Position numbers and translations under genes: made by a program
DNA from: Psammoneis japonica
Taxonomy: Eukaryota
Direction: 5' to 3'
Length of the DNA stretch: 64,000 nt
NCBI GenBank assembly: GCA_008632985.1
Contig: QPGO01000012.1
Coordinates: forward strand, 372,001-436,000
The notes under the pieces: model-generated
Told to the model about the DNA's origin: nothing
Databases searched by the model: none
What the model saw: the letters and a program-made list of their open reading frames with translations, nothing else
Shown here: positions 23,833-64,000 of the stretch, in pieces
Position numbering within the stretch: the first letter of the stretch is position 1
Layout: every line of letters starts with the position of its first letter

Positions 23833-24369
23833 GTGCTGATTTGTTTGTTCATTCGTTCATTCAAGAGAGAGCCAGTGGAACAAAACCTGCTCAAATTTCA
23901 CTGGAACATGACCAGCTGTTCCACCCACAATGAATGATGGCTTGCTGACTTCCAACAATCTGTGGTGCAAAAATAGAGAGATCAGGCATGAGCTGCTCTC
24001 ATGTCCAGATTTTGCTCCCTCAAACCTCCAGCCCCAGAAAATCCCATGCCAAAGCAATCAACAGCTCTTGAGCCATCATGCAAGAAGATCCACTGCAACT
24101 GCCCCCATGGCCCACAGTTGCAGCTGCCACCAGCTGCCACTTTTTCCCAGTTTGCAGTTCCATCACTGCTTGTGACACCAACAAAACACCAGAACATCCT
24201 GAAGCTGACACTTCAGAGGGGGGGTGCCACAACCACTGTGCCAGTCAAACTGGCATTGGGGACAGAGACAGCATTTACAAAGATCATGCTGCATGAAGCC
24301 TTGCACATTGTGAGCCGGGCAAATGAACAAAACTTGTTGCTCTGCCATTTTGCATGGGAAGCGGTGCTG

Positions 24370-24920: not shown

Positions 24921-25139
24921 AGGAGCTGGAAGACGGCCGATTTCTGCCAACCAGACCGAATTCCAAAGCAACACGCGCCGACTGCATTAACTGCTGTACA
25001 GAAATCCCCTTTTCTCTCTTCACTTCACTGTGGTTACATTCCAACCAACATGAACAAATAACAAACACACAGACACGTGTGCACAACACTTGACGAATGA
25101 CAACATCGCTAAATCATTTCAGAGTCGCTCTACACACTA

Positions 25140-26341: not shown

Positions 26342-27042
26342 TGCGGAAATGGTGAGACAGGTTAATTCGTGGGAGGAGAACAATGGATCGAGGACAAAAG
26401 CGATCACAGATCCAATCGATGTTGCTCTTCTTTTGGAAAGATAATATAGCTGCTGCTACAGTGTGGCTGTGGATGTCGTGCGTCTCGACAATTTTTCTGT
26501 TACGGTGTTGTTGCTGTTGCGAAAACCTTGTGGGCGGGTTTCGTCGCGTCGACCGTCTGTAACGAGCCGTGATTCAGATTTACCGGTGAAGTCCCGTTGA
26601 AAACTTGCGTCATCTATTCCCCGTTCTCACCCACCTTTGCATCTTGCAGCGCAGCCCTCCAACAATAAGATAATACATAATCAATTCTGCTTGTTCGGCA
26701 GCGTCCATGGTCCATGATATTGTAGCCTAACTGAGTGATGGGTGATGCTTGCTTTCAAATCATGTGATTTTCACCACTTCTTTTTCACTTTTTTCCAAAA
26801 TGCTTGTTATTTTTAAAAATTCGATTTTAAAAATTCGCTGGAACTGGTTTTCAAGGAAATTGGGTTCGTGTGCTGATGGATGGGCGGACGACTCCCGCCA
26901 AAGCGTTCGTCCGTCCTTCTATACTTATTTTAGTCGAGTGGATCATGCACCAGTCGGTCGTCCAAAATAGAATTTCTCCAAATTTCTCACAATTTTTTTT
27001 CTTCAACGTAACGTCACGACGTCCGAAGAAACATCCGGCACG

Positions 27043-27862
27043 ATGAGATTCTCCGCTCTTGCCGTTGTAGTGTCCCTCATTGGAAAGGCGTGCGCCTTTA
27101 CATCATCCCATCGTCAACCGCTCTTTGGAATTCCAACGCTTGCAAAAACAAAGCCGTTGCAAATGACGATTGTCTCGCCGTTTGACAACAACGGTGAAGC
27201 CGACGACACTGCAACAACCGTGACCGCCACAGAACAAATAGACGATGATACTCCACTTGACTTGACGTATGACAATGTCGATTTGGTTTTGGAGGAAATG
27301 CGTCCCTATCTCATTCAAGACGGCGGCAACGTTGCCATTCAAGAGATCGATGGACCCGTCGTGAAGCTGGAACTTCAGGTGCGTCAACGTCATGCTGACG
27401 TGGCACTGCTGAATTCGAAAAAATCACCAAATTTTGCCATGCTGAAAGTTGCCCTCTTCTCATTCATGTCATTTCTTTCTCGTCCACTCTCGCTGTCATC
27501 ATTAGGGAGCTTGCGGAACATGCCCTAGTTCGACACAAACCATGAAGATGGGTTTGGAACGTCGTTTGCGAGAACGAATTCCAGAAATTCAAGAAGTTGT
27601 ACAATCCATGCCGGAAGGTCCGGAGCTGAGCGAGGATCAAGTCAATGTCGTTTTGGACGGGGTTCGTCCATTTTTGCAAGTGGCCGGAGGGACCATTGAC
27701 GTTGAAAGTATTACCGGAGAAGCCAGCGTGCAACCGGCTGTTACTCTTAAAATGCAAGGCAGCAGCGCGTCGTTGGCTTCGGTGAAAATGGAAATTGCAC
27801 AGCGTCTTCAAAGGCATTTCATGATGGCGGGGTTGAGAGTGGAATGGGCAGATGCCATGTAA
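27043..27862 (+). CDS. NFU: Plastid NifU/NFU-type Fe-S cluster scaffold protein (2 exons: 27043-27378, 27506-27862)
   Basis: Signal peptide plus ACA-F cleavage motif. Two NifU-C repeats ([30 protein letters not shown]). Splicing the GT..AG intron restores [11 protein letters not shown] (CxxC). Confidence 0.93.
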
Positions 27863-28221
27863 ACGGAAAGAAGATGGCTGATTTGAGTAGGGAATTACCA
27901 GGTGTTTGATTTTAATTTTTGCGGGGTTTCTGTTCACCTTCACTCCCACTCGAAGCAACACCGGCAGCTGCTTTCTCCTTTCCGACCACATGCCTCAGCA
28001 ATGCGATGAGAATGCAACCCAATTGTATAAAGAGCTCAAGATCAAGACAGAAGCTTTAACAATAGATTTTTTATTATATTCATTGCCCCCGCAAACTGAT
28101 CATTATTAAACTTTAATCGACGCCCAAAACAAATACCAGAAGTAGCCAAATTTCCGGGACTCGGTGCAACTTAAGTACACCCAGGACACGACATGCGAAC
28201 GTTCAAACCCCGTATGAGTAC

Positions 28222-31200
28222 TTAGTAAAACTTGGAACGCTTTGCAGGCGGCTGCAAGTCGCCGTCCACATCTTCCATGTGCATCTCCGCGTCTCCATCA
28301 TTCGTTGCATCCTGACACGTGAGCAACGGCACACTGGCGGGAAGATACGAGAAGTAAATCGCCTGCTTCGAGGTATCGTATTGAATCCGATATTCTGCAT
28401 CCTCCGTTACTTTCAGGCAGAGCGATCGGGTTTTCAACAGATTCTGTTTCGGACAAGAACAGCAGTACATGGGACAAAAGGGCTCCTAAAGGGTAAGCAA
28501 CACGCCACATGGAGAACATACCTGGCCTTTATGCTGGGACCGATCAAATAAAGGCAACAGTAAGTCTTCTTGTGCTACCTCTAAAAGAGCCTCGGCGCAA
28601 GATTTAACAAGCTTGGGTACAGCTGCAAGAAGGTACACCTTTTCCTTTAAAGCTTCACGACAGTAGCTTTCATAAACTTGAAAGTCAATCTCTCCGTCAA
28701 GCAACTTTTTCAAACACATAATAACCCCGGCATAGCTGCGTTTCTTTGATTCGTCAGTCTTCTCCACGTCCATAGCGTCGTCCCCATTCTTTTTGTTAAA
28801 AGCTTTTCGAGCATCAGAGAGAATCGAAACCAGTAAGCTGTACAAGCGCAAAAAGACAAAACCCGACTCGGTAGAGAACACGAGAGACTGGGAATCGGGC
28901 AACTTCTTATCGTCTCCGCTCACGTTTCCACCAACATCGACACGCTTCATGATTCCGTTAGTCCTCGCAAAAAGCGTTCCGTCCGATGAAGGCAACGCAT
29001 GCACAATGGCACTAGACCGGACAAAGCCACTTCCGTAAGGATAAAGAACTTTGTATGTGACGCCACCACTGCTGCGAGAATCTCCGGATGTAGAGACGAT
29101 TTTTGCATCGCCGTAAGCAGTCTTGACTAGCTGGCCAGAAGAATCTGCAGAAAGAGAAAGACAATCGCATAAAGTATGAGAAACGGACACGAAAAATACG
29201 AGACTAGTCAAAAAGAAAAAGTCAACTTACATTTCACCACTGAAGACTGCGTGTGAAGACTTTCCCTCATCTCACCGAGGAACCAATTGACAGGATAGTT
29301 GAAGAAAGGAACCATGAACTCCGACCAAATTCGTGAAATCTGCTCGTGGTCTTCGCTTGAAGCGGTGTGGCACTGCAAAGCTATGCATTGAAACGCATCC
29401 TTGTGGGCGATGGTGCCTCTAACTCTCATTTTAAGGTGCGGCTGAAAAAGAAGCAAAGCAACGTCTGGATTGCTCAAGGAGTATTGCGGTTGGACTGATT
29501 TTGTGGCTGGATGATAGGATTCTGATCCGTCCGTGAAATGCTCTGCATCTTTGCATTCTTCCACTAACTGTTCCGGAAGAAAACTTTTTTCAATCTCCTT
29601 CTTATAAAAGAAGCAGATCGCGTCGAGACTTCCAAGATAATTCTCTTCCAGAGTACTTTTCCATCGTTTGCTCATGTCTGCTTTCGCCTTTCGCCACTCA
29701 ACCTCTTTTTCCCGAAGACGTTGGTACACTATAGGGAGGACGGCCATAGGGTTCCTTACGAGGCGCTGGATGACTTCGTCGCCCTTTTCGCCGTAGAGGC
29801 GAGCAATGGCATTCACTTGAGTGCCGTTCAAAGTACGACTCCGCAAAGTGTACGTCGCACGACCGATCGGCTGCCCGTCCTTTTCTTCGTTTTCTCGTAG
29901 CTGTGTCACTTCCTCGGCGATGCCTTCTACCTGACGCATAGCCATAACATTTCTTTCAATCGCCATATCGACTTCAAACTTCTCATCCTCGACTCTAAAC
30001 ATAGCTTCTTCATAAGAATTGTGTCTCATTCTGACTGCGTCGTAGTCCTCGGGAGAACTAATAATCTGCTTCTTGTTACTCGGATCCTGGGCGCAAATAA
30101 GGGTGCTGTTAAGTACCGATGCATCCGCCTCCGTTTGTCCGGAATGTGCAAAGAAAAGGCTGTGGGGATAGTCCGCCGGATAGGTCCGGTAGGATGGCGT
30201 AGGTCTTTCACTATGAGAGGCGTCAAAGTCTCTGCTGGACATGGCACCATACTTGGATTTATCTTTTAACAGGTTTTCTTGATCGGCGTATGGGCCCCGG
30301 CCGACCATAATCTAAAATAAGTTGAAGCACAGAAGCAATAATTGAGAGCAAACCAATAAAACGTGTCCCGTGTAGGCTAATTCTACTCACCTCCTCAAAC
30401 TCCCGAAGCAGCTCCTGTGCATCGCTAGCAACGGTTGGGTTGCTGGCGCCGCCTCCGGCGTTCGCGCCACTCTTTGGGGCGTGCCCTTGCATAAAGAGCC
30501 CTCTAAGCAGAAGGAACAGCTCTTCCTTGTTCAGAATCCCGGCGCCGTACAGATGCAGACATTTGAGAAACTCTGTGTACGGTGTGTGTCGTCGCGAGCC
30601 AGGAGGCTTATCAGGTGCAAGTTCCTTCCGACCGAGATGAAGCTTGGCTCTCTCAAAAAAGGCAGACTCCGCGGTTGAGGGTTGAATAGGCGGCACAGGA
30701 ATCAATTTCGGTCTGCCGTTTTTGACGGCTGCCTGTGCGGCGGTCAACTCCCCCCGCCTCGGAGGGCGCTCAGGACTAAACGAGACGATTCCATGAGCAG
30801 CAGCACGGCAGATTTCTCTCTCACGCTCTTCGCTGCGTCCCTGAGTCGCGCCAAAAGGGACAGGAGCTGTTGTCTGAGTGAAACCACCTGATGAAGTGGT
30901 GGAGGCAGCATTTCCCGCCATCGAGGACTGTCCGCGAACAGAAGCTGGCATCCCATGTGCGTGCCTCTGCATGCCTCGAGCGGTTTGCATTATCGCCTGT
31001 TTCGAAGAAGCTGCCCTTTTTCTCATCTCTGATTCCTTCGCCACTTGATCTAGCTGCGCCTTAGCCTGTGCCTGGACTGCGTCGGGGAGAAAATACGTAA
31101 ACTCCGTCAGCAAATCTGGGTGTTCGGAGAAGAGTAAAGATACCTCATCAAGGACCTCTTTGATTCCACGCTGCTCCTTCTGGTAGGTATGGAGGATTTC

Positions 31201-32196
31201 AAGGAATTTCTTGTAAATCTCTGGCTCCGAGGCGAATCTTTTCTTGATTGTTGTAACGTAATTAATTGCGTGGTCGAACTCGACCGGTGGGCCGCCACCT
31301 GGCTGCTGCTGCTGAGCTTGCGCCTGAGCCTGCGCATGATGTGGGTGTTGCACAGCCGCCGCGTGCGACGGAGGTGCCGGCGGACCACCAGGAGCCATCA
31401 TACGATGAGTGCCCGAACCGTCAACCGCAACAGGAGGCCCACCACCGGGTTGTTGGTGATGCTGCGATGGCCTGCCTGGTTGTTGCTCCTGGCTGCTCCC
31501 ACGACTGTGTTGGTCAGCTCCCATTTGCTGAGGTGGATGCTGACCACGTTGTTGGGCCTGGTGCATCTGCTGCACGGCATGCTGCTGCGAGTGAGCATGA
31601 ATATGCTGCTGGAACTGGCCACCACCAGCCGGACCGCCCATAGACTGGTCGACGACCATGCCACCAGATCCAGGTTGAGAGGGGGCATTCATAGCGGCGG
31701 AAGGTACGGCAGGTGGCTTCTGCGGTGGGGCTTTAAACTGTTGTTGAGCCTGTGGCTGGTGTTGAGGCTGCCCAAGTTGGGCATGCTGAGTCGGTCCAGG
31801 CGCCCTTGCCACACCTTCGGGCCGCGCTTGAGCACCAGACGCCACCGCAGGTCCTGGACCACTCGGTGCGGCCGCCGCCTCGGCAGCTGGTCCAAGGATA
31901 TGCGTGACGCCGGGTTGTCCAGGGGCACGATAGACGGCAACAGGTGGGCCGTCGCCGTCTGCTGGGATTTCGATTTTGTAGCCCTCCGGAAGAAACGTGT
32001 TGAACCCCAGCACTAGCTTTTTGTTTCCTTTGAACAGCGTTGAAACACGACGGATAACACCAGGGGTGTCAATTTGCTGAGTCTTGAACGTTTTCATAAT
32101 GTCCAAAAACTCATTGTAAATTTGCGGCCGGTCTCCAAACTCCATCTTGACCTGGTCTAAGTAGAGAAGAGCATCTTCCACCCTGAGCTCCCTCAT
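28222..32196 (-). CDS. SIN3: Paired amphipathic helix co-repressor SIN3 (exons 32196-30391, 30311-29231, 29144-28522, 28443-28222)
   Basis: PAH1 [35 protein letters not shown]2 [20 protein letters not shown] region [12 protein letters not shown]...[22 protein letters not shown]. Three in-frame GT-AG introns. Confidence 0.95.
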
Positions 32197-33245
32197 GATA
32201 AATACTGGCGTTCACGGTGCTCGAACGAGATTTCCTGCATTATCGAAAAGCGGAAATGCGGCGTGAGAGGACATCATCGTCTTCGCTTACTACTTACTTC
32301 CAAGTGAGAAGAGCAACAGCACAGAAACAAAAAACAGATCGGCAATCGAATGACACGACTAAAGTACGCAGCAACGTGCGCGAGGTGGATGCGCGCCAGT
32401 CGCCAGTCAAGTGAAAAAAGGGAACATGTCGATCGATGCGAAACGCCGACGATGCGTTGACAACACTTTCGCAATGAAGCAGCTCCTTACGGGACATTGA
32501 GCGCCTATCATCATGTCTTCAAGAGCGTGTACGACACATAAGCGGCAAGGCGGTTCGAGGAGAACTCCTCTATCAAAAGTTGTACAATGGCAAATGCAAC
32601 ATGTCGAGGCGGTGGCAGATGATTTGATATCCTGTAGAAATCTACGTAGAGACATACTAATTCCGAAGTGGGACAGGCAAGTCACGAGAGCACGAAAAAA
32701 GCGTGTCTCGACGAAATGAATGACACGGCCGAAAGCGAAAGAGTTGCAAAGCCGCTTCAACAACACAAATCAAAGAGGCAGTGAACGAGTCACTGGCCAT
32801 ACGAAGCAAACTGAACAAGCTCATTGTTGTTGTCGATTCTCACCTTGTCTGACGGCGTCACTGCACTCTTGGCGAACAACCTCGTTGTGGTGTGTTGAGT
32901 TGAAAAAAAGGGTGGCGGCTGTTGTCTATCATACGGTGACGAAGTACTAAAATATGATACGGTTCTCCGTACGTACAAACATACCAGAGGTTCGTAGCGG
33001 CATCATTTGTTTCGCGCGAAAAAGTGCGCGTATCAAAATTATATCCAGGATGAAGTATGATGAATGAACGAAATATATCTATAATATCACGAATACTCTA
33101 TTTAATGTTGAATTATATCCAATGCTATAGATATTAGAATTTATGACCGTTGTCGTGGCTGACCCTCACGTTTTGACGGACTTTCTCGTGTTTTCTCACT
33201 TCTTCATGCGAGAGAAGAAACGAACAAAAAATACACCTGATAACC

Positions 33246-33732
33246 ATGTCGTACAGCTGCAACGACAACCAAAACTACTTTGTAAAGGAGGGGAAAACTA
33301 CATCCCGGGTTCTAGCCCCTCCAGGAGGAAAGACCTCTATCTGTTTGGGGTGGGAGGAGCCCGAACCACCAGTTCGACGCACAAAAACTGTTGCAAAGCG
33401 TAAGTCATTTCATATCTTGTTGAAGATTTTGTTTCTCTTTTTGTGTGGTGTCTCTCATTGTCAATGTCTGCTGCATATTCACAGAGCCGGATGCAACTGA
33501 AAAGGAAGAATTGGTGGCGGAAAAGAAAGAAGTTCTGGCGGTAGAGGCCACCAAGGTTTCAACGGAAAAGCCCGCCACCATAGACAAGACAGAACCGTCT
33601 ACGAAAAGCTCAGAGGAGCCGGTCTCCAATAATGTGTTTGCGGCTAGTGGAGGTGGCAATGTGATTACTGGCCGTCCTTCTTCCCGTGTGCTTGCGCCTC
33701 CTGGAGGCAAGTCATCCATTGTTTTGGGATAG
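33246..33732 (+). CDS. Small Jupiter/HN1/SPIRAL1-like microtubule-associated protein (exons 33246-33399, 33485-33732)
   Basis: Two copies of SRVLAPPGGK(T/S)SI. The GTAAGT...CAG intron keeps the frame. Confidence 0.8.
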
Positions 33733-34601
33733 ATTCATCATGAATCCGGCAAGCTGCGTTGTTTGGGAGAACTGAATACACGGAATATTCCTCTTGTGGA
33801 TAGTGATTCAGTATTGCGTGCATGATTAGATGGCTGGCGGTTTTTCCTAGACAGTTTTGTAATGCGAATTAGAAACAATATAGTTGAACACGACCTACTC
33901 TCCCGAGTCTACCCTAATTCGGCTTCGTTCTGCATGCATGTGTAAGGCGTCGTTTGTGTCTTGTAACGACCCAAGCTAGAAGTATGGAGTAGAATAGTGA
34001 ACCAATTGGATCCTAATTTTACAAACAACAAGTACACATCCCACGGCGTAGCGAAGTCCTACTTTGACCAATACTCTTGGATAAACGAATCTTCCAGGCC
34101 AATCACGGAAGGAAATTCCGAGTTCTGCAACGTGGACGTCTCGAAACGAGCCTCTAGCGTGGTAGATGCTGCTTCGACGACATGGTTGGGCTCGGCACTC
34201 GGCTCGTGTTTTGGTAAAAGACACATCTTGCCGACGAACGGCTCCTTTTGCTCCTGCGGCTACTCTTGCTTTGAACCCAATCATGATTCAACTGCGAGCA
34301 CGGAGACAATTGCTGCTGCTGCTCTAGAGACGGTGTCGCAGTTTCATATGCCAAAATGACTTGGGCCGTAACGGGTGATTCGATTGTAGCCGCGGTCGTC
34401 TCGTGGTGGCCTTGAGCTGCACTGTCGGCAGACAAACTGGAAGGTTCCGACATTTGAGAGCTGGAACTCGTAAATTCTCGGCTTGGCGGTGTCGTCGTAG
34501 AGCGAGGTGCTCCACGACGGTAGGGAGTAAAGGTCTTCCAAGACACGAGTGCGACGGGTGGATGATTTCCATGGGCGCCCTTCTTTTCAAGAGTGAACTT
34601 C

Positions 34602-35666
34602 TCAAATTTGCAAAAGGCGAACCGCATTGGCGTCAAACTCACAAAGCGCACGTTTCGCTTGACTCCAAACGGACTTCACGGAACATAGCAACGTCCTTTT
34701 CTTTTCGCAAGTTGCATCGCCAGTCTTGTGAGTGTTGTAATCCCGAAATAGCTGAACCGCAGTTGCGCCAATGGCAACCAAAAGTAGGACAATGGCAATA
34801 CCAAAACAAAAGAGAACCCCGTCAAGTAGCTTGGCTTCCTTTTCGAGTCGCTCGTAAAGAAGGGTGCGATTGTAGTGCATCGAGTAAGGATCGTGTGTAA
34901 CTTGCTCCATGCCGCAAACATCGAGATGCTTTGCTTCTATTTCAAGTGCTATGCCAAAGCTGTGCTCGGGCGCTGCGTCGTGATCAATATCCAAGTCGTC
35001 CTTGTCTTGAACAATCTCGAAAGAAAACACTGCATTCGTGGGTCCGCCTTGTAGTACAACCAATTCCGTAATTGCAGCTTCTTGCTCCGCCTCGTCGTGG
35101 AATTGACGCGCGGCTACAGTGGGTGCATCCTTGCATTCGGTAGTAGTAGGAGGCGCTTTTTCCGTCTCATCGAATTGACTCGTCGTGGCTACATGATAAT
35201 CAAACTCGACATCGAGCTCCACGGACGTTGCCAACACGACACCGTTGGTTGCTTCGTCGTCGTCTTCAAGGTGAAAGATGTGGGTTGACGGAAAAGCCTG
35301 TACGGGCACCAACAAGTCGTCGGTAGAATCATCATGATGTTCGACAACAAGATTGCACGATGACAGACGCAACGCAAAGCTGCTGCTGCTGCTGCCATTG
35401 GACGACGACGGTAAATCCGGAAGCACTACGACACTCTCCTCACCACAGGGGTTGATAGGAACATGCTCTGACGTTTGCACGTAGTACTCGGGTAGCGCGG
35501 CCGGAATGTTTTCAGAGCGAATCGAAATGTCACACACGAGCGGATGATGTAACCAGCGCGCTTTTTCGTCAACGCTTGTCATCAACGGTACTTCACTGCG
35601 AGGCGGCGTACACGACGAACGCAAGAGCAAGACGGAAACGAGACTGGTAGCGGCGGTTCTCATCAT
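34602..35666 (-). CDS. Hypothetical protein with an N-terminal hydrophobic segment and one transmembrane helix; 3' end uncertain
   Basis: ORF MMRTAATSLVSVLLLR..., acidic body, TM GVLFCFGIAIVLLLVAIGATAVQLF. May continue into the Ser-rich frame 34154-34600. Confidence 0.6.
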   Translation of the reverse strand: MMRTAATSLVSVLLLRSSCTPPRSEVPLMTSVDEKARWLHHPLVCDISIRSENIPAALPEYYVQTSEHVPINPCGEESVVVLPDLPSSSNGSSSSSFALRLSSCNLVVEHHDDSTDDLLVPVQAFPSTHIFHLEDDDEATNGVVLATSVELDVEFDYHVATTSQFDETEKAPPTTTECKDAPTVAARQFHDEAEQEAAITELVVLQGGPTNAVFSFEIVQDKDDLDIDHDAAPEHSFGIALEIEAKHLDVCGMEQVTHDPYSMHYNRTLLYERLEKEAKLLDGVLFCFGIAIVLLLVAIGATAVQLFRDYNTHKTGDATCEKKRTLLCSVKSVWSQAKRALCEFDANAVRLLQI

Positions 35667-35932
35667 GGTTGTTATTGTTGTTTGGGAAGTGATAATGTTG
35701 GGAATGTGCGTCGCCGTCACCGCGCGGCTGCAGTACTGGAAAGTCACGTAGAAAATCGCCGTAGAGATTTTTTGCGCGCCAAACCAATTTTGAGGCACGC
35801 ATTCGAGCAAAACAACTGCCTCTGAGCTTGTTTCTCAATACAAATCTACCTCAAAGGACTTGAGAAACAACCTCGTGACGACATGTCGTTGTTTGGCTCG
35901 TCCCGAACCTCTCACGTTGCCTCGAATCCTGA

Positions 35933-36799
35933 TTATGGCCAAAAGGTCGTCCACGGAAAGCTGCTCGATTTGCGATGAGGATGGAGCTTTGTTGGCAAGC
36001 ACCATCTCCACAAAGTCTTGTCGTCGCTGTTTTTCTCCGAGCGTATTTGAAGAATTTCAGAGACAACATCCTTGTCGTTGCTGCTCTCTCGATCGTTGTT
36101 GCTGTTGTTGATACTGGATTGTTGTTGCTCTTGACGCTCCCAAAGCCACTCCTTGGCCCGTTTGGATGCTTCCTTTTCCATATACGCCAACGTCTCATAT
36201 AGACGCGTATATACACCCAAGGCGGTCTTGTAGTCTGCGTCAACCGGTAGCACTTGATTCTTGATTGCCTCTTGTGCCAGTCGCCGAGCTCGCTTGTTTG
36301 CTCGAACTGCTTTTCGTTTCTTTATGCCCTCTTGTTTTAGTTTTTCCAACTCGGCATTCCACTCTCGCAGCTCTTGTCGACGTTTATAATATCCAGAAAA
36401 TGTTTCTTCTCTCTTTAATCTGGCTTCCTCGAGAGTCTTTTCTTTTGACAATCGCTTTTGCTCTTCCAACACATCTTGCTGATACAACTTTAGATAGTAT
36501 TCCTCGTCCGTGTCCTTGGCAAAGAGACGAGTTGTAGAGGAACATAAAGCTTCACGAGAATAGTGAGGCTTTCTCCTTTCTCCAAAAACAACGAGTGCAT
36601 GACTGCCTGACGACGACGACGAGAGGAAAAGAATGAAAACGACAAGCAGCACGAGCCGCCGAGTCGCAACATTTATATTTTTGTTTTGAGTGTGGTTGCC
36701 TTTCGTTTGGAAAATCCTCTTGAACATGGATTCATTCAGGGACTGAGCAGCTTTGCAGATCTTGTATATATGGTTGGCATTTCGGTGTAAGGCTTTCAT
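35933..36799 (-). CDS. Hypothetical coiled-coil protein, possibly organelle-targeted; start uncertain
   Basis: Long ORF with hydrophobic LVLLVVFILFL, a transit-like STTRLFA segment and an E/K/R-rich coiled coil. Normal codon usage. Confidence 0.6.
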   Translation of the reverse strand: MKALHRNANHIYKICKAAQSLNESMFKRIFQTKGNHTQNKNINVATRRLVLLVVFILFLSSSSSGSHALVVFGERRKPHYSREALCSSTTRLFAKDTDEEYYLKLYQQDVLEEQKRLSKEKTLEEARLKREETFSGYYKRRQELREWNAELEKLKQEGIKKRKAVRANKRARRLAQEAIKNQVLPVDADYKTALGVYTRLYETLAYMEKEASKRAKEWLWERQEQQQSSINNSNNDRESSNDKDVVSEILQIRSEKNSDDKTLWRWCLPTKLHPHRKSSSFPWTTFWP

Positions 36800-36963
36800 G
36801 TGGCCGTTGTGTTCTTCGTCATGGCCGTGACGACCAGTTGCGGCCACGAGTTGGCGACGGTTTGCTCCCGCGCTTTTCTCGCGTGGATCGCGCGCTTCTA
36901 CCTTTTGTTTACGGTAGGCCCTACATACAGTACGGTACAGTAGGGCCCGCTCTACGTGTCTGA

Positions 36964-39286
36964 ATGAGATCATTGCGTCACAGCCATTACGCAACGAACA
37001 GGCAGTCCGACGGCCGCCATGCAACAGTTATCATCAACGACCGGAAAAAGCACACGGCATCGAATTCACACTAAGTGAAAGCCAAGAAGGTTGCACCAGT
37101 CACATTGATCAAACACAGGAATTGTCAAGAACAACATTGTGTGGTCCATGCACTCTCTCCAAGCTTTTTGCCAGCACCAGCGCCGCAGCGAAACACAGCA
37201 GAGCCCTGGTCAGACACTCTCTGGAACGGCCTTGCTTGTTGGGTCATTGTTTTCACACACAAGCTTGGCAAGCAAAAAAGAAGAAAGGCGTTCCAGTGGG
37301 AGAATGGCCAAAGCAAGAATGCCCAGCTGGTGGCATCAAAACAAGGCCTCAAATGTGCTGCCGCCAAGATGTGCCACCCAGCAGCAGCCCAAACAAGAAG
37401 CGGGGAAAGTCCAAGAGCAAATGGCCAGAATGAAGGCAAGAGCCACCATTGGCTGCTCTCTCCTTGGCCCCTCCATTGACAAGATGGGTGCCAGTGCTCT
37501 GTGCAAAGTGCAAAAGAGTTGCTTGCATCATCTGGCAACAAAAAAAGAGAACAAAATGCTGTTGGCTTGACGTTCATTCAAAAAGTGCTCACTGCAGAGG
37601 CACGAATGGTGTCGGTGGTGGCAAAGAAGCAGCTGTCTGGCTGGTGAGGGCATTCTTGGTGGAAGCTGCAAACTCATTTTCAAGAAGCCTCCAAAAAAAC
37701 TCACCACTGTGGTGGTGGCTTCTTGTGCCAAGTTGGTGCTTGTCTTTGTTGAGGACAACAGCTGATTGTTGCACTTTTACAAGCTTTTGTCTCAGTTTCC
37801 TGGTGTCTTTGAAAAGGCAGCCAGTTGGCACTGTTGTTCTGCCTGAACTTTTGCTCATCCATGCACCTCTTTAGCCAAAGTCCAACTTGGCATGCACACT
37901 CTCAAATCATGTGCTGCTGGCATTCTTCACAAAGGAGGAAAACAGCATTTTGTCGATGGTTGGAGATGATGACTGTCACTCTGCACAGCTGTGCAATGAA
38001 CCCAACTTGCATTGACCAACATTTCAAGAAATCCACAAGACAGAAAAACAAATCAAAAACAAAAAACAGCTGCAAGCACAAGTCACAGCATGGTTCAAGC
38101 TCCAGCCTGTTTGTGTGCAAAATGCATGTAGAGACATCACATTGCACACACAGTCAATCTAAAGTGGACATCTGAAGTTGATTTTGAGTTGATTGTCCTG
38201 GTTTGCCCAGCCAAGCCAATGTGCTTGACACTTCTTTGTTGTTTGTTTGTCTCAAAGATGTGATCTGTCTCTTTTGGGTCTCATCACCATCAAGTCCTGT
38301 TTTCCTGATGAGTGCTTTGACCAAGCCCTTGCTTTGAGCTTTGTGTTGGCACCACTGCACTTTCTTGCAACAAAAGCAAAGCAGCAGTTTTGTGGTTTTT
38401 GCATTTGTGCACACAGCACAGCAGTTTGGTGTGTGTGTGACATTTTTTGTGCATCTGGACAATGGATCACAATCACCAAATGGCACATTGCAAAAAGCAG
38501 CTTTGTGGATGAGGTTTTGGAAGTGGCATGCAAGAAAGAGGTCAAGAATTGCAAACGAACACAGCATGTGCCGGGCAAAGAATTGAGGCTGCATTGTTGC
38601 TGTGCCTGTTGAAATCTCCTTTAATGTCCAGCTGTTGGCATTCATTGAGTGCAGTGCTGTGGCCCTTTGTCACCCACCCTTGCAGCGAAGCTTCTCAAGG
38701 CTTTCACATTCACTCCCATGCTCAACTGTGCTGCAGCCACTCCTGGAGAGGCACTCTGACAGTTGAGGGCAAATCATGAGGCAGTGCCCAGTGCAAAGTC
38801 ATTGGCATGAGTTGAGCACAACTTGTGCAAAAAGCAAGTGTCAAGCTCAAGCCTGTTGTTTCAATTTTGATAAAAACAAGGGTGACAATCACAACCACTG
38901 TCCTCAACCTGTGTTGGAACAAGCTCATTTGCAAGAAAACACAGTGCGGCATTGTTTCTTTGTGACTTGTGAGTTTGTGGCATGCCAAAGGAAGTGAAAA
39001 TGTTTGACCCATGTGAAGCAAGCCTCGTCAATGTGGCTGAAGCAGAACCTGTGAATGTCAAAAATGTCAACAATTTGCTGAACAAGCTCCATGACTTTTT
39101 GCAGGAGAGACTCCCCTCATCATTCCTGGGTTCAACTTTGCCTTCCCTTGGTTCTTTGCAGATGATGGAACTGTGCGTGGCTGGCTGTGCATGCTTTGCA
39201 GAGGCCAGCTTTGGCCATTGGATCTTGGCCATGGCAAACCAAAAAAGGCACCAACCTTGCAGACCCAAATGCGAGATGATTCAATG
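36964..39286 (+). repeat. Dispersed repeat element of about 2.3 kb, copy 1
   Basis: Colinear with 47672-51336 from TGAGAT..CATTGCGTCA to CAACCTTGCA.ACCCAAA...GATTCAA. Lacks the MITE insertion (empty site CCCAGCTGG near 37322). Confidence 0.88.
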
Positions 39287-42200
39287 AAGGTCTGCTTTGC
39301 TTGCTGCTCCATTTGCTGCAAGCTTCAAGCCAAAGTGACAAAGGAAAGTCACTGTGGTTGTGCCAGCATTTGTGGGACTTTCAGCAGGGTGAGAAAGATG
39401 GATCTTGATGTTTGTTCTCAATTTTTGTGAGAGCCCTGCTCTTGAATGGTGCTCCCATTCATCTTTCATGGTGGTGTCTGGAAGGGAGAAAATTGCAGCC
39501 CATGACAATTTTGGGGTGTCATCACCCAGTGCTTTCATGGGATCTTTTTGCACACATCCCGCAACTTGCTTCAGTCAAAGGTTTGGTGGAATTTGCAGGT
39601 GCTTCCAAGCACTGCCACAAAGCAACCACATGCCCAGCAGGGGACCTTGACAATTGCAGAGAATGTTGCAGCAGAAAGAACTCTTTCCAAGTTGGTCAAT
39701 GCTCAAGATCATGCATGCTTTTGCTGCATCATCAGTGGCACTCCTGTGGAAACAACCACCCTCACACTAAAGCACAAAAACTTTTGCAAAAACCACCACT
39801 TGGCTGCCTGCAACAGCCCAGCTGGTGCATTGAGAGTGCTCCTGCCAATGGCTGCCATTTGGCCAGGTGCTTTGCACAAGTTCCCACAGCTTGCACCCCA
39901 GCCCACCTTTCCAAAATTGTGCAAAACCTTCAAGATGTGACTCTGGAAATCTTGGCTTCTTGTCAATTTGTCCCAAACAATTTCTTCAAATGCACTGTTG
40001 TTTGCTCCAGTTGACTGCTCAGTCAGAAGTGTGACAGTCAGACTGCACTCCCACTGCCCCACACAAGATCTCCATGGATTCAAGAAAAGCCAAAACTTGA
40101 CAAATCTGTTTCTTGATTGTGCCACATTTTCTGGCAATGCACTGCAGATCAGAGAGCTCCTGGATGCACTCTTTTCCTCCTGCATGGCTGCCAAAACTGT
40201 GTCAAACAGATTGGTGCTGAGGGTGTCCTTGGTTTGCCTCATGATCCCTCCAACAGAATGATGGTGTGTTGGGGCCACTCCCCAACCAAGTGCTTGCACA
40301 ATTTTTGTGCTGAGATGAACTTTGGAGCAACTTGTCTCTAGAGAGTGTTGCTGTGTTGGAAGCCAAGCATCTTGAGATTGTTCTTGCATGGTGTGCAGTG
40401 TCACAGAGTGCATTTTTACATTGTTGCTCCTTCCACATGTGCGCTGGTCATGTCAGTGTGTCAAAAAAGCAAAGCCAATGATGCCACTTCTTTTGATGCC
40501 ACAGCCAGGCAGACAAGCAGGGGTTCACAGAATGTCTCCTTTTGGGATCTCCCTGCAGGTCCCACCTCTGATGTTTGAGAATGCCAGTGATCCAGATGTT
40601 CCTGAGGTGCCATTTTTGAGCAGAGGAGTCTCCCACAAAATCTGCTGGAGAGGTGTCAAACAGCATGGGTGGTTCTTGGGCCCCATTCTTGTGGGCTGTT
40701 GTTCTCTTGAAATGCTCACATCTTGTTTCTTCTTGCTTTCTCAGGGCAAAAAGAACAGGGTGTGGCATGAGTGCAGCAGCATGACACCTGGAGAGTGGGG
40801 CCCTGCAGTGCAATGCTGCAGCAATTTTGGGGCAAGGAGAAAGGGTGGAGTTGGACAAACATCCAATTGAGCAGCTCTGCCTTGGCCACTGGTGGCATTT
40901 GTTTGTCACATTTGACAGAAAACCAGCTTTGCCAATTTTGATCATTTGTTCAAGAGAGAGAGACACAAACTGGCCTCATCATCATGAGAGGTGTCTCCAC
41001 ACTGACCACAACATCAACAATGACAGGGGAAAGGAGTGGGAAGTGAGAAGATGTGAACTCTTTTTGTGTTTGCTCAAACTTCGCCAGCCCCCTCTGACCA
41101 CCATTGTCACCCAGAGGATGAGTGAGGGGCCAGGACAAAAAGGACACATGAAACACAATCCCAAACAGCAATGGCAAAAAGTTGAAATGAAGTTCACTGT
41201 GAGTTTGAAAGTTGATGAACATGCAAGTCAAAATGCAGAGCATGCATTTGCTTCACCCGTTCACTCTTTTGTTTGCATGTCTGAAGCACGCTTGCCAAAC
41301 AAGAGTTGAGAGTTGATCATTTTTGGACATTGACCATGCAACCAGGGCCATGTGTCATGCAGCATTGATGACTGCCAAAAAGTTAAGATGAAGCTCACTG
41401 TGTGCTTTTGCTTGTTGACAGACACTTGAGTCAAAATGATTGCACAGAGAGAGTGATGATGAGATGAGTGAGCTGACAATGGAAGCATTTCATGGATTGC
41501 ATTTTGTCGTGCATGGTGAGATCAGCAACAAATGTTTTGGGGGTCATGATGGTCAGAGTTCAGAGTTCTCATTTGTGGCAGAGCTCAAGAGTGTGCGACA
41601 AAGCCATTGGCTCACAAAGCCACAACCCAACAAATCAGCAACAAAGCTTCACATTTTGTCCATTGCTTCCACACTGTCCTTGGCTGTGTGGCTGCTTTGA
41701 GCAGCAAAATTGAGAATCACTGGTTCCAGCACTGCAGCCCTCCAGCTGCTGGAGAGTGGAGGACCCTGCTGCAGCTGTGGTGCCCTGCATGCCCCACCCT
41801 TGACCAGGGGTCTGTGGAGCTGGTTGCAACATGGCAGAAGTTCTGTGTGCATGTTGTGAACATGGCACACCAACACACAATGCACCTCTCTTTGGTCAAT
41901 GCTTTTTGGGTGCATTTCTCTTTAGTTCTTTTTGTTGTCAGCATTGAAGAACCCAAGCATTGTGGCAATGCACAGCAACCACTTTCACGCAGATGTGCTG
42001 TTGGTCCAATGACCATCCAGCCAGGCCAGCTTGCCAGCCACACACACTTGTGGCCCTGCTGCTGGCAACAACCATGACTGAGATGCAACAACACATTGAC
42101 ACAAAGCGGCTGTTTGCAGCAGAAGAGGGAAAGAACAAAAGAAACCGTTAAATCAGCCATGTTTGTTTCAAGCATGTGTGGCTCTGCTGTGGCCTTGGCC

Positions 42201-44490
42201 TTTGCTCTGGATGCCTTGTGGCTTGCACTTGTTGCAATGAGACACAGGAGTGGGCTGACAAAAACTGTCCGCACTGCACTCTGCACATGACATGTGCAAA
42301 TGGGAAGAGCAAATGTGACCATCAGATCCACCACAATTATTTTGGCCTTGTGCTGGGCCTCTGACTGCTCTTGCCTTGGCCTTCTTTTAAGATGCCTTGT
42401 GGTTTGCAGCAACAATGTTTTGCATGACAAACAATCTGTTCTGTCAGTGTTCTGCACACAAGCTGTCACATTCAATCTCACATTTTGTGCCATGGATCCC
42501 ATTCAATTGATGTCATCAAACACGTTGAACGTCATCATGAATGATCAACAAAAGTTGTCACAAATGGGATTTGAGCATGCCATGGCACATTGCACCCATT
42601 TCTGTTTGTTGCAGTTGGTTGATTGTTGCATTTGGGGTGTGGCTCCATGTGTCCTGGCATGCAGAAGGTGAAGAAATGCATGAGAAAATGTGACAAAGTG
42701 GCACTCTTGGCACCCCCCCCCCCCCCCCCCCTGGGAAATCCCATGGCACAACCAACCTGTGATTTCAGAGTGGAGAGAGACTGTGCATCATCACACTCAA
42801 TGTGTGCATGCAGTGCCCAGACATTTTGCACCTCAGGCCTGCTGACCAACACAAAATGAGGGAAGGATGAGGGATGAGCAGGACCAACAATTCAACCCAA
42901 CATCACAAAGGCCTCTAGTTCTCAGTTGAAAGCACCAAAACAAACAAGCACAGCAGACCAAAGTCAGCCAATGATGCGCACACCAAGTGCCTTTCATGAA
43001 GCAGCAAAAATGAGGCAATTTTCATTGTCTTCAAAGGTGTCAGTCTTCCTTGTCTTGTTCCCACGATCTTCTCAAAATTGCAGGATCCTCAGGAGACAAC
43101 ACGAATGACAGTGTGCCATCATCTGCAACAGCCATTGATGGGAGTGTGCTCCTTTCTCTGCATCTGGACTCTACAGCAACTTGCTGCCAGCTCACATGGC
43201 TGCAAACAAACACTCAGCAGAGGAAGCAGACTGTCCATTCTGCTCAGCAAACAGCTGCTGTTGCTGCTGTTGTGACTCCATGGTGCCAATTCTCTGTCCC
43301 GATGCCAGTTTGTGCAATGGTGACCTTGACTTGGTTTCCAGTGGAGGAGAAAATGACAGGATGACCAGCGGGACTCTGCCAAGAGATGCTGATTTCAAGG
43401 CATCTCTAGTTTCTTGCAGCAAAGTGAAAAGCAATGAATCCAGTGGTCAGAAAGGAGAAAGCTTGCATCATTCATCTGGTGCCACCGGTGCGAGGAGTCT
43501 TGACCATGAACCTCAATTTCCCGATGCGTGGTCAAGACTCTGTTGCAAATGTGCAACAACCAAAGATGACTGCCACAGCATTCACTCTGAGATTGAGCTG
43601 CAACATGGGGAACACTTTGGATGGGTGCTCTTGGAGTTGCAACGATGTTTCCCAACTGTGAAAAAAAAGCTCCAAGGTGTCGCCCTGCTTCTGTTTCTCA
43701 TAAAACGATCCCAAAGTCAAGCGACCAGCCCCAATCTGTCCTTTCTCAGCAGACACCATGTGGCCTCAAAGAGCACTGTCAATTCATCAGTGGACTGGCT
43801 GTCTTGACGATTGCATTGGTGAGACAAAGAATGTTGCTGTGTCAGGTTTTGTCAATCGTCATGTGCATGGAGTGGCTTTCAGCAAACGTGCGGCAGTGTT
43901 TGTTCTTTTGCTTGTGGTCTTCTTGCTGGGGCTTCTGCCAAAGCTGTTCATTTCAAAAGCCATTCCTGCCGAGACATCTCCTGCATCAACAAACTGAGCC
44001 ATGAAATCCTTGAATGTGGCAACACCACCATCCATGAACTTCTTGAACACTTGGGAAACTTCACACGGCACTGTCACTGCTGGCGAACCTGCCAACAATT
44101 TAAAAGATTTGTGCCATCAGCAGATGCTGTCTCAGCCCTTGGAACATTTGTTCAAACAGCTCCGCCTGTGCTGCACATTTGCCAAACCCCATGATCCCAT
44201 CTTGGAAGCAACTGCTGTCTGTGCTGGTGTTCAGAACCTTGAAAAGTCTGGGGTCTTCAGTGATGCAATCAAGGACTGGCAAAAGATTGCCACAGTTGAT
44301 CAGACCTTGGATCATTTCAAGGTCCACTTTGCAGCTGCCAACAAGGAACACTTGTGCCAACTCACCACCAATCTCCCCTTCCCCCAACACCAGTTCACTG
44401 GCTTTGGCCTGCTCATGCAGCTCAACAAACACAAGATGGCACATGTCTCTTTTCCCAACACAGGTGTTTTTTGGCAAATGCAGTTCCAGA
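37075..44490. other. TpA- and CpG-depleted hypermutated domain 2
   Basis: Almost no TA and few CG dinucleotides. Partial recovery of TA between 44497 and 44880. Confidence 0.93.
43945..44370 (+). mobile_element. Copia-type (diatom CoDi-like) gag fragment
   Basis: IHELLEHL / HGTVTAGEPANNLKDL / QPLEHLFKQLRLCCTFA / LEKSGVFSDAIKDW / DQTLDHFKVHFAAANKE. Confidence 0.7.
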
Positions 44491-61348: not shown

Positions 61349-61710
61349 CTCAAGGCCAGCTTCAGCTGAACATGGTGCTCAACATTGTGCATCAAGCCAT
61401 GTGATTGCTTCACCTCAGAAAGAGAAAAAAGGAGTGTGGTGCAGTCAGACAAACGGAGTCTCACGAGTTGGAATCTTTGGTTTCTCTCTGGCAGATGGCA
61501 CAGCACTCTGGCCAGCTGCTGCTCAAGGCCAGCTTCAATGACAAGCTGGAGAATTTTCATTGGAGTTCAGCTGAACATGCTGGTGTTCAATGTTGTGCAT
61601 CTGGCCATGTGTTTCTTCACCTCAGAAAGAGAAAAGACAGAGTGTGGTGCAGTCAGACAAATGGACTCACAAGTTGGAATCTTTGGTTTCTCTCTGGCAG
61701 ATGGCACAGC
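61349..61710 (+). repeat. Direct repeat of about 145 bp, period about 207 bp
   Basis: TTCAGCTGAACATG...CTTCACCTCAGAAAGAGAAAA...GTTGGAATCTTTGGTTTCTCTCTGGCAGATGGCACAGC occurs twice. Confidence 0.85.
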
Positions 61711-62351
61711 GAGTAAATCTGGATGGAGTGCCATGTTGCAATTGGTGATTGGTCAAGATGTGTGGATCAAGTGGTGCTGCAGCGACACGCTCACAATCTA
61801 ATCAGGTTTAGGTTCACATTGACAGTGTCGCTGCTTTCCATTTAGACTCAAGGCATCGTGCTTGTTCTTTCGTTGCATCGAGATTTGTTCGCTTTGTCAG
61901 AGCCAAGACGAAAAAGACAGAGTGAAATGGTTTCGAGTGCAATTCGTCACAGACGATTGTTTGTTGTGTTGTTTGCATGGAACGTGCAGCTGTGGAAACG
62001 GCACTGAACTGTGCGCGATGCGTCAGAATTCGGATTGATGCGCACGATGATGCGTCTCGTGTTGCTCATCACAACACCCACAAAAACAGCTTGCAATGGT
62101 GACACTCACAAAGATGGTCACTGTCCTCACATGTGTGACAGGTGTGAAGGGACTGCGGCATTGGGCGACATGCCCGAGCGTTTGCCCAACAATGTCGGTT
62201 GACATGAGCGACACAGGACTGATCGCCCTGACGTCGGGTGGCTGTGTGAACCCGTCATCACAACACAGAGAAAGTGCAGCAATCATGACCATGCAGACTC
62301 ACAGCTGCATGTTCCTGGTGTGGGACCTTTGTGCCCTTTCTCCATTGTGGG

Positions 62352-63895
62352 ATGGCAGCAGCGGCAGCACCAGCAGCAGCACTTGCGGCGTCAGCCGCGG
62401 CAGCTGACGTTGACGCAGTTTTGCAAGTTTGTGGTGTTGCTGACCAGAACGCAAGGGCGAGGTTGGTCTTCCATGAAGGGTCCACGACTTTGGAAAACAT
62501 CGCAGTGATGGAGAGTGACCACGATGTGGAAGATGTGGCACAGAGGGCGTCTCGTCGCACGGTGGCCGACGGATGTGTGACTCTTGGGACTGTTCAGATC
62601 AAGAACTTACAGGCGCCAGTGTGGTGGTGCCAGGATTTGCTCAAACAGAATCAGCCATTGGTTGCGGCAGACTTTAATGCAGCAGCTGTGGCTGCGGCCC
62701 GGGATGGCAGGCACATCGAAAAGGAGCGCACGGATTCGGACGCGTCGGTGAGCGGTCTCGTAAAGTTCAAGCCCGATGACTTCAATGTGTGCGAAGATGC
62801 TTTCTTGAATCTCTTGGCACAGAAATTTGGCGTGTTGAAAGAACCCCTTGCCATGTCGTAAGGACAATGCCAGCTCCGGCTGCATTCACGGATGCTCAAC
62901 AACAGTGCACGCACCAGATGCCATTGAATGGTGCCACATGTGACGAGGACAACCGCAGCGTTTGCCATGTGTTGAAGGAACACTTGGTCGACACGGCAGG
63001 ATGGGCATGGATTGAACCGTTTGACGCGACAGAAGACGGACGTGGAGCATTCAACACATGGGTTGACCATTGCAATGGACAGGGTGAGTTGAGCAAGCGC
63101 ATCCATCTGGCTGCGGGAACTGTTGAAACCTTGTTTTGTAAAAAGGAAGGATCGCTCCCGTTCGAAAAGTTCAATGAGAAACTTGCCAGTGCTTTCGCCA
63201 CTTTGAACAAATCACCGGACGACCGCAAATCTGAACGACAGAAAGTTGACATTCTTCTAAAAGGGATCCGAACGGATGACACTCGTCTCATTGCAGCAAC
63301 GGCTGTCATCAGCAGTCAGCACCCACGTGACTTCGCGGGGGCATGTGCTTGTTTCTCATCCGAAGTCTCTCATTTGCACGCAGGTGCTCAGTTGGAAGCC
63401 CGGCATCACTCGAAGCGCAAGATTTCTGAAATGAGCCGTGGTGGCGGTGGTGGCCGCGGTTTTTATCAAGGTCGCGGTTGCGGAGGAAGATTTGGACGTG
63501 GGGGTGGACGCGGACGCGGTGGTGGCCATCAAGGCAGAGGTGGCGACCACACTACGATGATCAATGGAGTCGATGCATCCAACCCCACAAGGAGCTTTAG
63601 TGCTCAAGAATGGGAAAAGTCACAGTGTGATGGAGGCATGAGCCACGTGTTCCAAGCTCGCGAACGAATGGGTCATGGACGCGGTGGTGGCCGTGGGTCT
63701 CCCGCAGGTCGACAAGGACGCGATGGGGGCGGCAGGCATGCAGCTGAAGCCCAAGTCCATCAAGATGGCCAAGGCCAAACCCAACAACAGGATCAGGAGC
63801 AAAGGAGCAGCGGGCGTGGACGCGGCGCTGACCGGGATCGCGGTGGACGCAATGGACGTGCCTTCGGTCGGGGAGCCTACAATGGTTCCACCTGA
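62352..63895 (+). mobile_element. Copia-type (diatom CoDi-like) gag, nearly full length, one frameshift near 62850
   Basis: PL.HVVR (PLxYVxR), GATCDEDNRSVCHVLKEHL, DGRGAF, DHCNGQGELSKR (HYxGxGE), TLFCKKEGSLPFEKF (LxYKxE..FE.F), and an RGG-rich nucleic-acid-binding tail. LTR not delimited. Confidence 0.82.
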
Positions 63896-64000
63896 CTCCT
63901 TGGGGTGGCAACAGCCACTGGAGCATTGGCGCACTTGGTGCACTTGTCGTTTTTGCTTGTGTCACTCTTCTTGCTGTTGGCCAGGCCCCACCCAACATCT

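What the first reader, a model, noticed from the sequence alone, without database searches (positions are those of the whole stretch)
62352..63895. TpA loss precedes and is separable from CpG decay
This nearly intact gag keeps abundant CpG (e.g. GACGCGACAGAAGACGGACG, GGACGCGGACGCGG) but has only about 10 TAs in 1.55 kb and 2 Tyr in about 510 codons. The 12-17 kb genes are similar. Older blocks (20-24, 37-44 kb) have lost both. TA conversion thus appears faster than 5mC deamination and mechanistically distinct, with both converging on TG/CA.
Basis: partly seen in the sequence, partly recalled or inferred. Interest (0 to 1): 0.72.

Follow-up and report, generated by a model that had tools for sequence, protein, structure and literature searches.

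The report
TA-erasing mutation outruns CpG decay
In a diatom genome, jumping-gene copies have most of their T-A steps rewritten to T-G or C-A soon after they insert and long before their C-G steps decay, which points to a fast DNA-editing process aimed at silenced DNA, of a kind I found described only in one preprint on an unrelated alga.

Summary
Confirmed. The stretch is the frameshifted gag of a 6.87-kb Ty1/copia copy in a pennate diatom: 10 TA (o/e 0.13), 109 CG (o/e 0.91), 2 Tyr. Sister copies show that 38 of 48 former TA sites, but only 21 of 126 CG sites, became TG/CA. Outside relatives hold about 2.8% Tyr, so gag is not natively Tyr-poor. Conversion happened after insertion, on both strands, copy by copy, and also in Helitrons. 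In a very young copia family the converted zones lost 538 of 658 TA but 50 of 988 CG: TA loss comes first, 30-50 times faster. It has its own context rule (RTAY hot, YTAR cold) and ignores CpG distance, so the chemistry differs. But it is not independent of CpG decay: both share domains and edges, and they correlate across 32 copies (rho 0.70-0.78). Closest known: TpA hypermutation in Bigelowiella natans (2026 preprint). Most likely a TadA/ADAT2-type DNA deaminase acting in silenced chromatin (inferred; no enzyme shown). This scan noted the same pattern before, on other DNA of this genome.

The parts
61706..61709 (+). 4-bp target-site duplication, 5' copy (the 3' copy lies beyond the window)
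   Evidence: same four bases on both sides of the element in L031
61710..61891 (+). 5' LTR, 182 bp, ends CG...CG; 4 of 16 TA-class and 6 of 8 CG-class sites kept
   Evidence: self-match to the 3' LTR 6.7 kb downstream; site counts
61892..62351 (+). leader between LTR and gag, TA-poor
   Evidence: aligns across 13 copies
62352..62861 (+). gag, 5' frame (about 170 codons, no Tyr)
62780..63895 (+). gag, 3' frame (371 codons, 2 Tyr); conserved Tyr columns read Cys or His
   Evidence: 'gag' rests on position upstream of an RVT_2 pol, Pfam gave no gag hit
63896..64000 (+). start of the pol region; the element runs on about 4.6 kb beyond the window
   Evidence: in sister copies pol follows the gag stop in the same frame; RVT_2 hit E 5e-12 in L048
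10696..17431 (-). second repeat family (the '12-17 kb genes'); left end not reached; class unresolved, Helitron-like only as a weak lead; 32 of 249 TA-class and 233 of 317 CG-class sites kept
   Evidence: 62 matches in the genome, 12 fetched; Atlas score 0.85 with low recognition
20001..24000 (.). old block, both TA and CG gone (o/e 0.04, 0.13)
37001..44000 (.). old block, both TA and CG gone (o/e 0.04, 0.14)
2115..2939 (-). Helitron helicase-like fragment in TA-free DNA (a DNA transposon, no reverse transcription)
   Evidence: PF14214 E 4e-9; TA 1 per kb
25001..37000 (.). host-gene control region (Sin3, NifU-like): TA o/e 0.54, CG o/e 1.06

Best explanation
Two mutational processes act on the same silenced DNA at very different speeds. 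SHOWN from sequence: after a transposon copy has inserted, A:T pairs in TpA are changed to G:C, on either strand with equal odds, one site at a time; one hit gives TG or CA and destroys the target. It nears completion while CpG loss is still about 5%, covers part of a young copy first and then more of it, spares about 300 bp beside TA-normal DNA in older copies, and can leak about 300 bp into a flank. CpG-to-TG/CA decay follows in the same domains, far more slowly. The result kills coding capacity early (Tyr to Cys/His). INFERRED (about 0.5): the agent is a host TadA/ADAT2-type deaminase that turns A into hypoxanthine in chromosomal DNA, read as G at replication. INFERRED (about 0.65): it is aimed by a silenced chromatin domain that also carries 5mC, not by pairing of homologous copies.
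For: Tyr columns conserved in 48 outside relatives read Cys in some own copies and His in others. 307 TA-class sites in 13 copies: TG 1731, CA 1576, TA 640, CG 9; background 0.3-1.2%. TG/CA outcomes agree between copies only 0.50-0.66 and are uncorrelated along a copy beyond 4 nt. The two LTRs of one copy differ at 102 of 244 TA-class comparisons, 28 of them TG against CA (16 pairs). L126 vs L152: 140 of 172 TA and 29 of 161 CG changed to TG/CA. Young family: 3 of 11 copies unconverted (TA o/e 0.73-0.75), 6 with converted zones: TA 538 of 658, CG 50 of 988 inside; TA 63 of 1047, CG 23 of 1271 outside. 20 of 20 fetched Helitron loci have TA o/e 0-0.24. A context model fitted on three families predicts outcomes in the held-out young family (slope 1.12 +/- 0.22; strand term 0.03 +/- 0.12). 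Context: +1 T 1.95, C 1.6, G 0.63, A 0.51; engineered TadA8.20 favours UA 5-10-fold and UAU most, on RNA (PMC12027372, passages). Edges beside TA-normal flanks keep TA 142 of 166 vs 116 of 481 and CG 110 of 110 vs 253 of 293. B. natans shows the same TpA-only spectrum in mutation-accumulation lines.
Against: No enzyme is identified: the deaminase set is ordinary (9 PF00383 matches, one ADAT2-like and one TadA-like), and its presence is not evidence. Sequence cannot tell A-to-G from T-to-C on the other strand. TadA8.20 also edits UAG well in the same paper, whereas +1 G is cold here, and the TadA data are on RNA. Methylation and chromatin were not measured. No TA-intact copy of this gag family was found among the 25 copies profiled, so the progenitor state rests on LTRs, site classes and outside relatives. 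Four of 11 young copies (L134, L138, L139, L144) have mismatched target-site duplications and may be recombinants or assembly joins; the graded zone is best supported by L137, L140 and L141. Why conversion starts in the 5' half of the young family, while older families keep 5' LTRs beside genes intact, is unexplained. Site classes were inferred from the copies themselves, so sites where all copies took one outcome are missed.
Confidence: 0.78

Rival explanations
1. Error-prone repair or translesion synthesis (polymerase-eta type, recalled to favour TA and AA) patches DNA around damaged methyl-CpG and leaves A>G changes as a by-product of methylation.
For: TA and CG loss share domains and edges and correlate; background A>G outside TA tracks CpG loss (rho -0.81).
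Against: AA is not hot: A>G at AAN is 0.25-1.5% per copy against 60-99% loss of TA. TA survival is unrelated to distance from or density of CpG (rho -0.06, p 0.32) and outcomes do not cluster by strand beyond 4 nt.
Confidence: 0.13
2. A base modification at TpA is the lesion: oxidised thymine read as C, or methyl-adenine that deaminates.
For: Fits strand symmetry, site-by-site independence and domain-wide action as well as a deaminase does.
Against: No TET/JBP match in the genome, but the control was silent too, so this is weak. I know of no TpA-specific mark in diatoms (recalled, not searched).
Confidence: 0.2
3. Targeting is by homology pairing between copies, as in fungal RIP, with an inverse chemistry.
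For: All converted sequences studied here in depth are multi-copy.
Against: Six near-identical 18S copies keep normal TA and show no TA variant (selection and concerted evolution could hide it). Of two identical LTRs one is spared and one converted according to the flank. A TA-poor, CpG-normal flank has one match in the genome. Four TA changes lie in a flank within 290 bp of an LTR. The B. natans target is single-copy.
Confidence: 0.12
4. Editing happens on the element's RNA or cDNA during retrotransposition (ADAR/APOBEC-like).
For: The target is a retroelement; two A_deamin loci exist.
Against: The two LTRs of one copy changed independently; no strand term; Helitrons are hit; the youngest copies are unconverted.
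Confidence: 0.02
5. Base-calling artefact of modified DNA in the assembly.
For: The assembly method is unknown to me; the pattern is confined to probably methylated DNA.
Against: Contigs of a public DNA run show the same TG/CA swaps at the same places (62308/9, 62749/50, 62852/3, 63644/5), and one 228-nt record matches 61268-61495 without a difference (library not on record, and the run may be the assembly's own source). TA-intact copies exist in the same assembly. 3 of 120 outside relatives are likewise Tyr-poor and Cys-rich.
Confidence: 0.03
6. The element is natively TA- and Tyr-poor (codon or nucleotide bias).
For: All 25 profiled gag copies are TA-poor.
Against: Median 2.8% Tyr in 120 outside relatives; Cys/His alternate between copies at Tyr columns; LTRs beside genes keep 14-16 of 16-17 TA in most cases.
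Confidence: 0.01

Closest known systems
TpA-restricted hypermutation of integrated NCLDV and virophage DNA in Bigelowiella natans (Mettrop et al., bioRxiv 10.64898/2026.01.13.699255; read parts 1-3 of 5 of the text and a term search; supplements closed)
   Same: A>G and T>C at TpA, giving TpG and CpA; confined to foreign or silent DNA; very high rate; uneven between lines or copies; TpA-poor coding sequences there are enriched for RT and DDE domains; ADAT2 proposed without proof.
   Different: Host is a diatom (stramenopile), not a rhizarian. Targets here are resident LTR elements and Helitrons, driven to near saturation, whereas TpA persists in the B. natans regions. The preprint's main text has 0 occurrences of 'diatom', 'CpG', 'LTR' or 'flanking': the ordering against CpG decay, the context rule, edge protection and partial zones are not described in what I could read.
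Repeat-induced point mutation of ascomycete fungi (RID/DNMT4-type; recalled, and named in PMC9998398 passages)
   Same: Dinucleotide-specific hypermutation that ruins repeats and can leak into flanks.
   Different: Opposite direction (RIP is C>T and creates TpA); RIP needs homology; here neighbouring hits are not strand-coordinated and sparing depends on the flank.
CpG decay of methylated transposons (5mC deamination); diatom LTR elements are methylated (PMC2806351, PMC9998398, passages)
   Same: The slower component here: CG to TG and CA in equal numbers (498:497), nearly context-free.
   Different: Cannot make TA into TG/CA; about 10- to 50-fold slower than the TA process.
Diatom Ty1/copia (CoDi) retrotransposons (PMC2806351, passages)
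   Same: LTRs, gag then pol with an RVT_2 domain, one stop between gag and pol, short target-site duplication.
   Different: CG...CG LTR ends instead of the usual TG...CA (recalled); CoDi group not determined.

Membership tests
B. natans-type TpA hypermutation | A:T>G:C transitions concentrated on TpA | tested here: met
   TA-class states TG 1731, CA 1576, other changes under 25; A>G outside TA 0.2-1.5%
B. natans-type TpA hypermutation | both outcomes (TpG and CpA), i.e. both strands | tested here: met
   strand terms within 0.06 of zero in four families
B. natans-type TpA hypermutation | restricted to foreign or silent DNA, host genes spared | tested here: met
   element TA drops at its boundary; host genes o/e 0.54; rDNA normal; silence itself not measured
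B. natans-type TpA hypermutation | rate about 1000-fold above background per generation | tested here: inconclusive
   relative only: about 0.9 hits per TA base against 0.23% non-CpG C>T in the same copies, some hundreds-fold; no per-generation rate
B. natans-type TpA hypermutation | acts on single-copy DNA | tested here: inconclusive
   one single-match TA-poor flank and 4 TA changes in one flank; small numbers
B. natans-type TpA hypermutation | active in only some lines (not constitutive) | not testable with these tools
   one assembly; young copies differ widely (4-143 TA lost), which may be age or switching
B. natans-type TpA hypermutation | same enzyme (ADAT2 proposed, unproven there) | not testable with these tools
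   an ADAT2-like gene with the Asn motif is present, which is ordinary
Fungal RIP | C:G>T:A transitions that create TpA | tested here: not met
   TpA is destroyed, not made
Fungal RIP | triggered by homology between copies | tested here: inconclusive
   rDNA spared, identical LTRs treated differently; no experiment
APOBEC/ADAR-type editing during retrotransposition | one-strand, pre-insertion changes shared by both LTRs, retroelements only | tested here: not met
Ty1/copia LTR retrotransposon | direct LTRs with target-site duplication | tested here: met
Ty1/copia LTR retrotransposon | copia-type reverse transcriptase late in pol | tested here: met
   RVT_2 at residues 944-1095 of 1470 in sister-subfamily copy L048
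Ty1/copia LTR retrotransposon | integrase before RT; gag motifs | tested here: inconclusive
   Pfam gave no integrase or gag hit

The most novel reading that the evidence does not exclude
Diatoms run a chromatin-guided, spreading A-to-G DNA-editing defence, shared in kind with a rhizarian alga and so possibly old in the SAR lineage. It destroys new transposon copies almost at once, at or before the time CpG methylation is laid down, without needing homology: an adenine counterpart of RIP that works through a natural double-strand-acting adenine editor with an ATAY preference.
Probability: 0.42. Interest if true: 0.9.

Novelty: new variant of a known kind. Interest (0 to 1): 0.7.

Why it matters
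It extends TpA hypermutation from two viral inserts in one alga to resident transposons across a diatom genome, and adds what makes it testable: an order (TA first, CpG later), a rate ratio, a context rule that predicts held-out copies, and young copies caught part-way, where methylation, chromatin marks and small RNAs can be mapped against the edge of conversion. A natural enzyme that edits A to G in chromosomal DNA would matter for genome-defence biology and for base editing. Practically, LTR-pair dating in such genomes is inflated (129 of 165 LTR-pair differences lie at TA- or CG-class sites), and Tyr-to-Cys/His erosion hides these elements from profile searches.

Tried and rejected
Pfam gave no family for the gag frames or for the 12-17 kb ORFs. 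A homologue search for one 12-17 kb ORF gave one unnamed hit; the Atlas gave a Helitron-like lead under 0.9. Background divergence in subfamily 2 is inflated by misalignment around deletions in 3 of 7 copies, so only transitions were read there. An apparent TG excess on the sense strand (358:243) vanished after context correction. Zero C>T at CA is a product of my site classes. A context fit on outcomes alone cannot separate the -2 and +1 positions; the joint fit was used. Light-harvesting paralogues were uninformative as a homology control. The TET/JBP search had a silent control. No RNA holder listed for this stretch. The domain make-up of the two A_deamin loci was not examined and stays open. 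Literature: searches for diatom or algal TpA loss in repeats returned no such report other than the B. natans preprint (found, listed again in 73 and 83); a 2025 diatom transposon preprint (10.1101/2025.10.24.684338) has 0 hits for TpA, dinucleotide, hypermutation or deamination (term search only). Subscription journals are mostly outside the library.

Full report
1. Observation. The counts hold: 10 TA and 109 CG in 62352-63895, 2 Tyr. The window alternates between TA-poor blocks and TA-normal gene blocks. A host kinase at 45290-46624 has named relatives in Amphora and Nitzschia, so the host is probably a pennate diatom; the genome holds 91.4 Mb in 597 contigs.

2. The element. The gag belongs to a 6.87-kb element with 182-bp LTRs and a 4-bp target-site duplication. 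A sister-subfamily copy has a 1470-codon pol with RVT_2: Ty1/copia. The genome search gave 49 matches (40 scored); all 25 copies profiled have 4-15 TA in gag. The window's gag is split over two frames.

3. Is it natively Tyr-poor? No. 120 outside relatives have a median of 2.8% Tyr. At nine columns where 58-96% of 48 aligned relatives have Tyr and own copies do not share another residue, the ten own copies read mostly Cys or His, differing from copy to copy (two further columns read Phe or Lys/Met). TAY to TGY or CAY needs a TA progenitor and independent later changes. 3 of the 120 relatives are themselves Tyr-poor and Cys-rich, a hint that the process occurs in other organisms.

4. Rates in this family. 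In 13 full-length copies (L031-L043; the 87%-identical L044 and six rearranged or more divergent copies were left out), 307 sites were classed as former TA, 464 as CG, and 98 as ambiguous and dropped. TA survival is 0.08-0.23, CG survival 0.74-0.91, background change 0.3-1.2%; the -ln ratio is 7.6-15.4. States at TA sites are TG 1731, CA 1576, CG 9: one hit removes the target. In the window's gag 38 of 48 TA-class and 21 of 126 CG-class sites are changed.

5. After insertion, at DNA level. In 16 LTR pairs, 102 of 244 TA-class comparisons differ (28 as TG against CA), 27 of 142 CG-class and 36 of 2120 others. Outcomes agree between copies only 0.50-0.66. All 20 fetched Helitron loci (of 49 matches) have TA o/e 0-0.24. 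After context correction there is no strand term in four families, and no strand coordination beyond 4 nt.

6. Order. A younger subfamily (7 copies; L048 and L050 share a flank) keeps TA 0.18-0.35 and CG 0.87-0.95; the 12-17 kb repeat (12 copies) keeps 0.09-0.17 and 0.67-0.82. Among the 30 best-scoring RVT_2 loci (of 150 scored; biased toward intact ones) 13 are TA-normal, 11 of them one family at 98.5-99.8% identity. In that family three copies with 99.7-100% identical LTRs are unconverted, two are lightly hit and six have a converted 5' zone of 1.5-4.3 kb. Inside the zones 538 of 658 TA and 50 of 988 CG are lost; outside, 63 of 1047 and 23 of 1271: ratio 33, or 49 after subtracting baselines. 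The zone edge was fitted on the TA data, which favours a TA contrast but not a CG one. Over the same first 2 kb, four converted copies lost 290 of 330 TA and 25 of 462 CG, five others 42 of 419 and 5 of 577. L134, L138, L139 and L144 have mismatched target-site duplications and may be joins; L137, L140 and L141 match and show a graded decline. A TA-intact/converted pair gives 140 of 172 TA against 29 of 161 CG. Of 791 1-kb tiles (repeat-enriched, partly redundant), 188 are TA-poor with normal CpG, 159 poor in both, and 0 of 229 TA-normal tiles are CpG-poor. TA loss precedes CpG loss.

7. Separable? In chemistry, yes. TA loss has a context rule: ATAT sites survive 0.5%, YTAR about 40%; fitted weights are A 1.74 at -2 and T 1.95, C 1.6, G 0.63, A 0.51 at +1 (784 sites). 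The rule predicts the held-out young family (slope 1.12 +/- 0.22), and 42 depleted kb of the window hold no RTAY against 10.5 per kb in genes. Weak A>G outside TA shows the same 3'-pyrimidine taste. CpG loss is almost context-free, and TA survival ignores CpG distance. With site heterogeneity modelled, TA load rises as CpG load to the power 0.61; both 1 and 0 fit worse (2 dlnL 20.8 and 52.7), though noise in the CpG estimate and unmodelled resistant sites pull the exponent down. In targeting, no. Survival of the two correlates across 32 copies (rho 0.70-0.78; families are not independent points). At 10 edges beside TA-normal DNA the first 190 bp keep 142 of 166 TA and 110 of 110 CG, against 116 of 481 and 253 of 293 at the other 30 edges; TA protection fades by 500 bp (one edge just under the cut-off, L035 5', was counted as closed although intact). 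CpG loss is higher inside young converted zones (odds 2.9, p 2e-5).

8. Targeting. Six 18S copies keep normal TA with no TA variant. Identical LTRs are treated differently by position. One TA-poor, CpG-normal flank has a single match. Against an LTR-free homologue, one flank shows 4 TA-to-TG/CA and 1 CG-to-TG among 5 substitutions, all within 290 bp of the LTR. These favour a chromatin domain over homology pairing, on small numbers. Diatom LTR elements are methylated, and DNMT5a loss releases young elements in Phaeodactylum (PMC2806351 and PMC9998398, passages); this genome has several C5-methyltransferase genes.

9. Mechanism. A TadA/ADAT2-type deaminase is my lead (about 0.5): TadA's natural target has a 5' U and TadA8.20 favours UA, most of all UAU (PMC12027372, passages), and the B. 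natans authors propose ADAT2. Against: +1 G is cold here but well edited in that paper, and the genome's deaminase set looks ordinary. A modified base at TpA (0.2) and error-prone repair (0.13) remain. Editing during retrotransposition, native bias and a base-calling artefact are unlikely.

10. Novelty. My searches found no report for diatoms; the preprint's supplements were closed and may hold flanking contexts. Earlier notes of this scan report the same pattern, including the ordering and a partial zone, elsewhere in this genome; they are not independent support.

Noticed in passing
window 61710-61891; L031-L050: LTRs of this family begin and end with CG (imperfect inverted ends) and make 4-bp duplications, while the young copia family has TG...CA ends and 5-bp duplications.
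   Followed up: partly
L032 3045/3046, L048 3021/3022: pol follows the gag stop codon in the same frame, which suggests read-through.
   Followed up: no
L134, L136-L141, L143-L145, L151 with L176-L186: Conversion in the young family always occupies the 5' part; the 3' 2.2 kb and 3' LTR stay nearly intact even beside TA-poor 3' flanks. L137, L138 and L139 share one 3' flank.
   Followed up: partly
L093-L095, L099 (G000:C297, C301): Several C5-methyltransferase-like frames lie in TA-poor DNA, some with stops: possibly methyltransferases carried by a mobile element or dead copies.
   Followed up: no
G000:C40:112674-113392 and C79:344558-345390: Two A_deamin (ADAT1/ADAR-type) loci; the second may be an ADAR-like paralogue.
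   Followed up: no
L124 3500-4500: An rDNA locus carries a 1-kb block almost free of TA and CG just after the 18S region.
   Followed up: no
window 10696-17431: Multi-copy repeat (62 matches) whose ORFs have no Pfam family and one distant unnamed relative; class unknown.
   Followed up: partly
proteins P0009, P0051, P0118: Outside gag relatives from other data sets with 0-2 Tyr and raised Cys; P0009 has Cys or His at five of nine Tyr columns.
   Followed up: partly
window 61370-61709: Short direct repeats just upstream of the 5' LTR; a 211-bp stretch recurs at 97% just beyond the 3' LTR.
   Followed up: no
L079/L082 and L080/L085: Tandem dCMP-deaminase-like domains at two loci with identical scores, perhaps haplotypes.
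   Followed up: no
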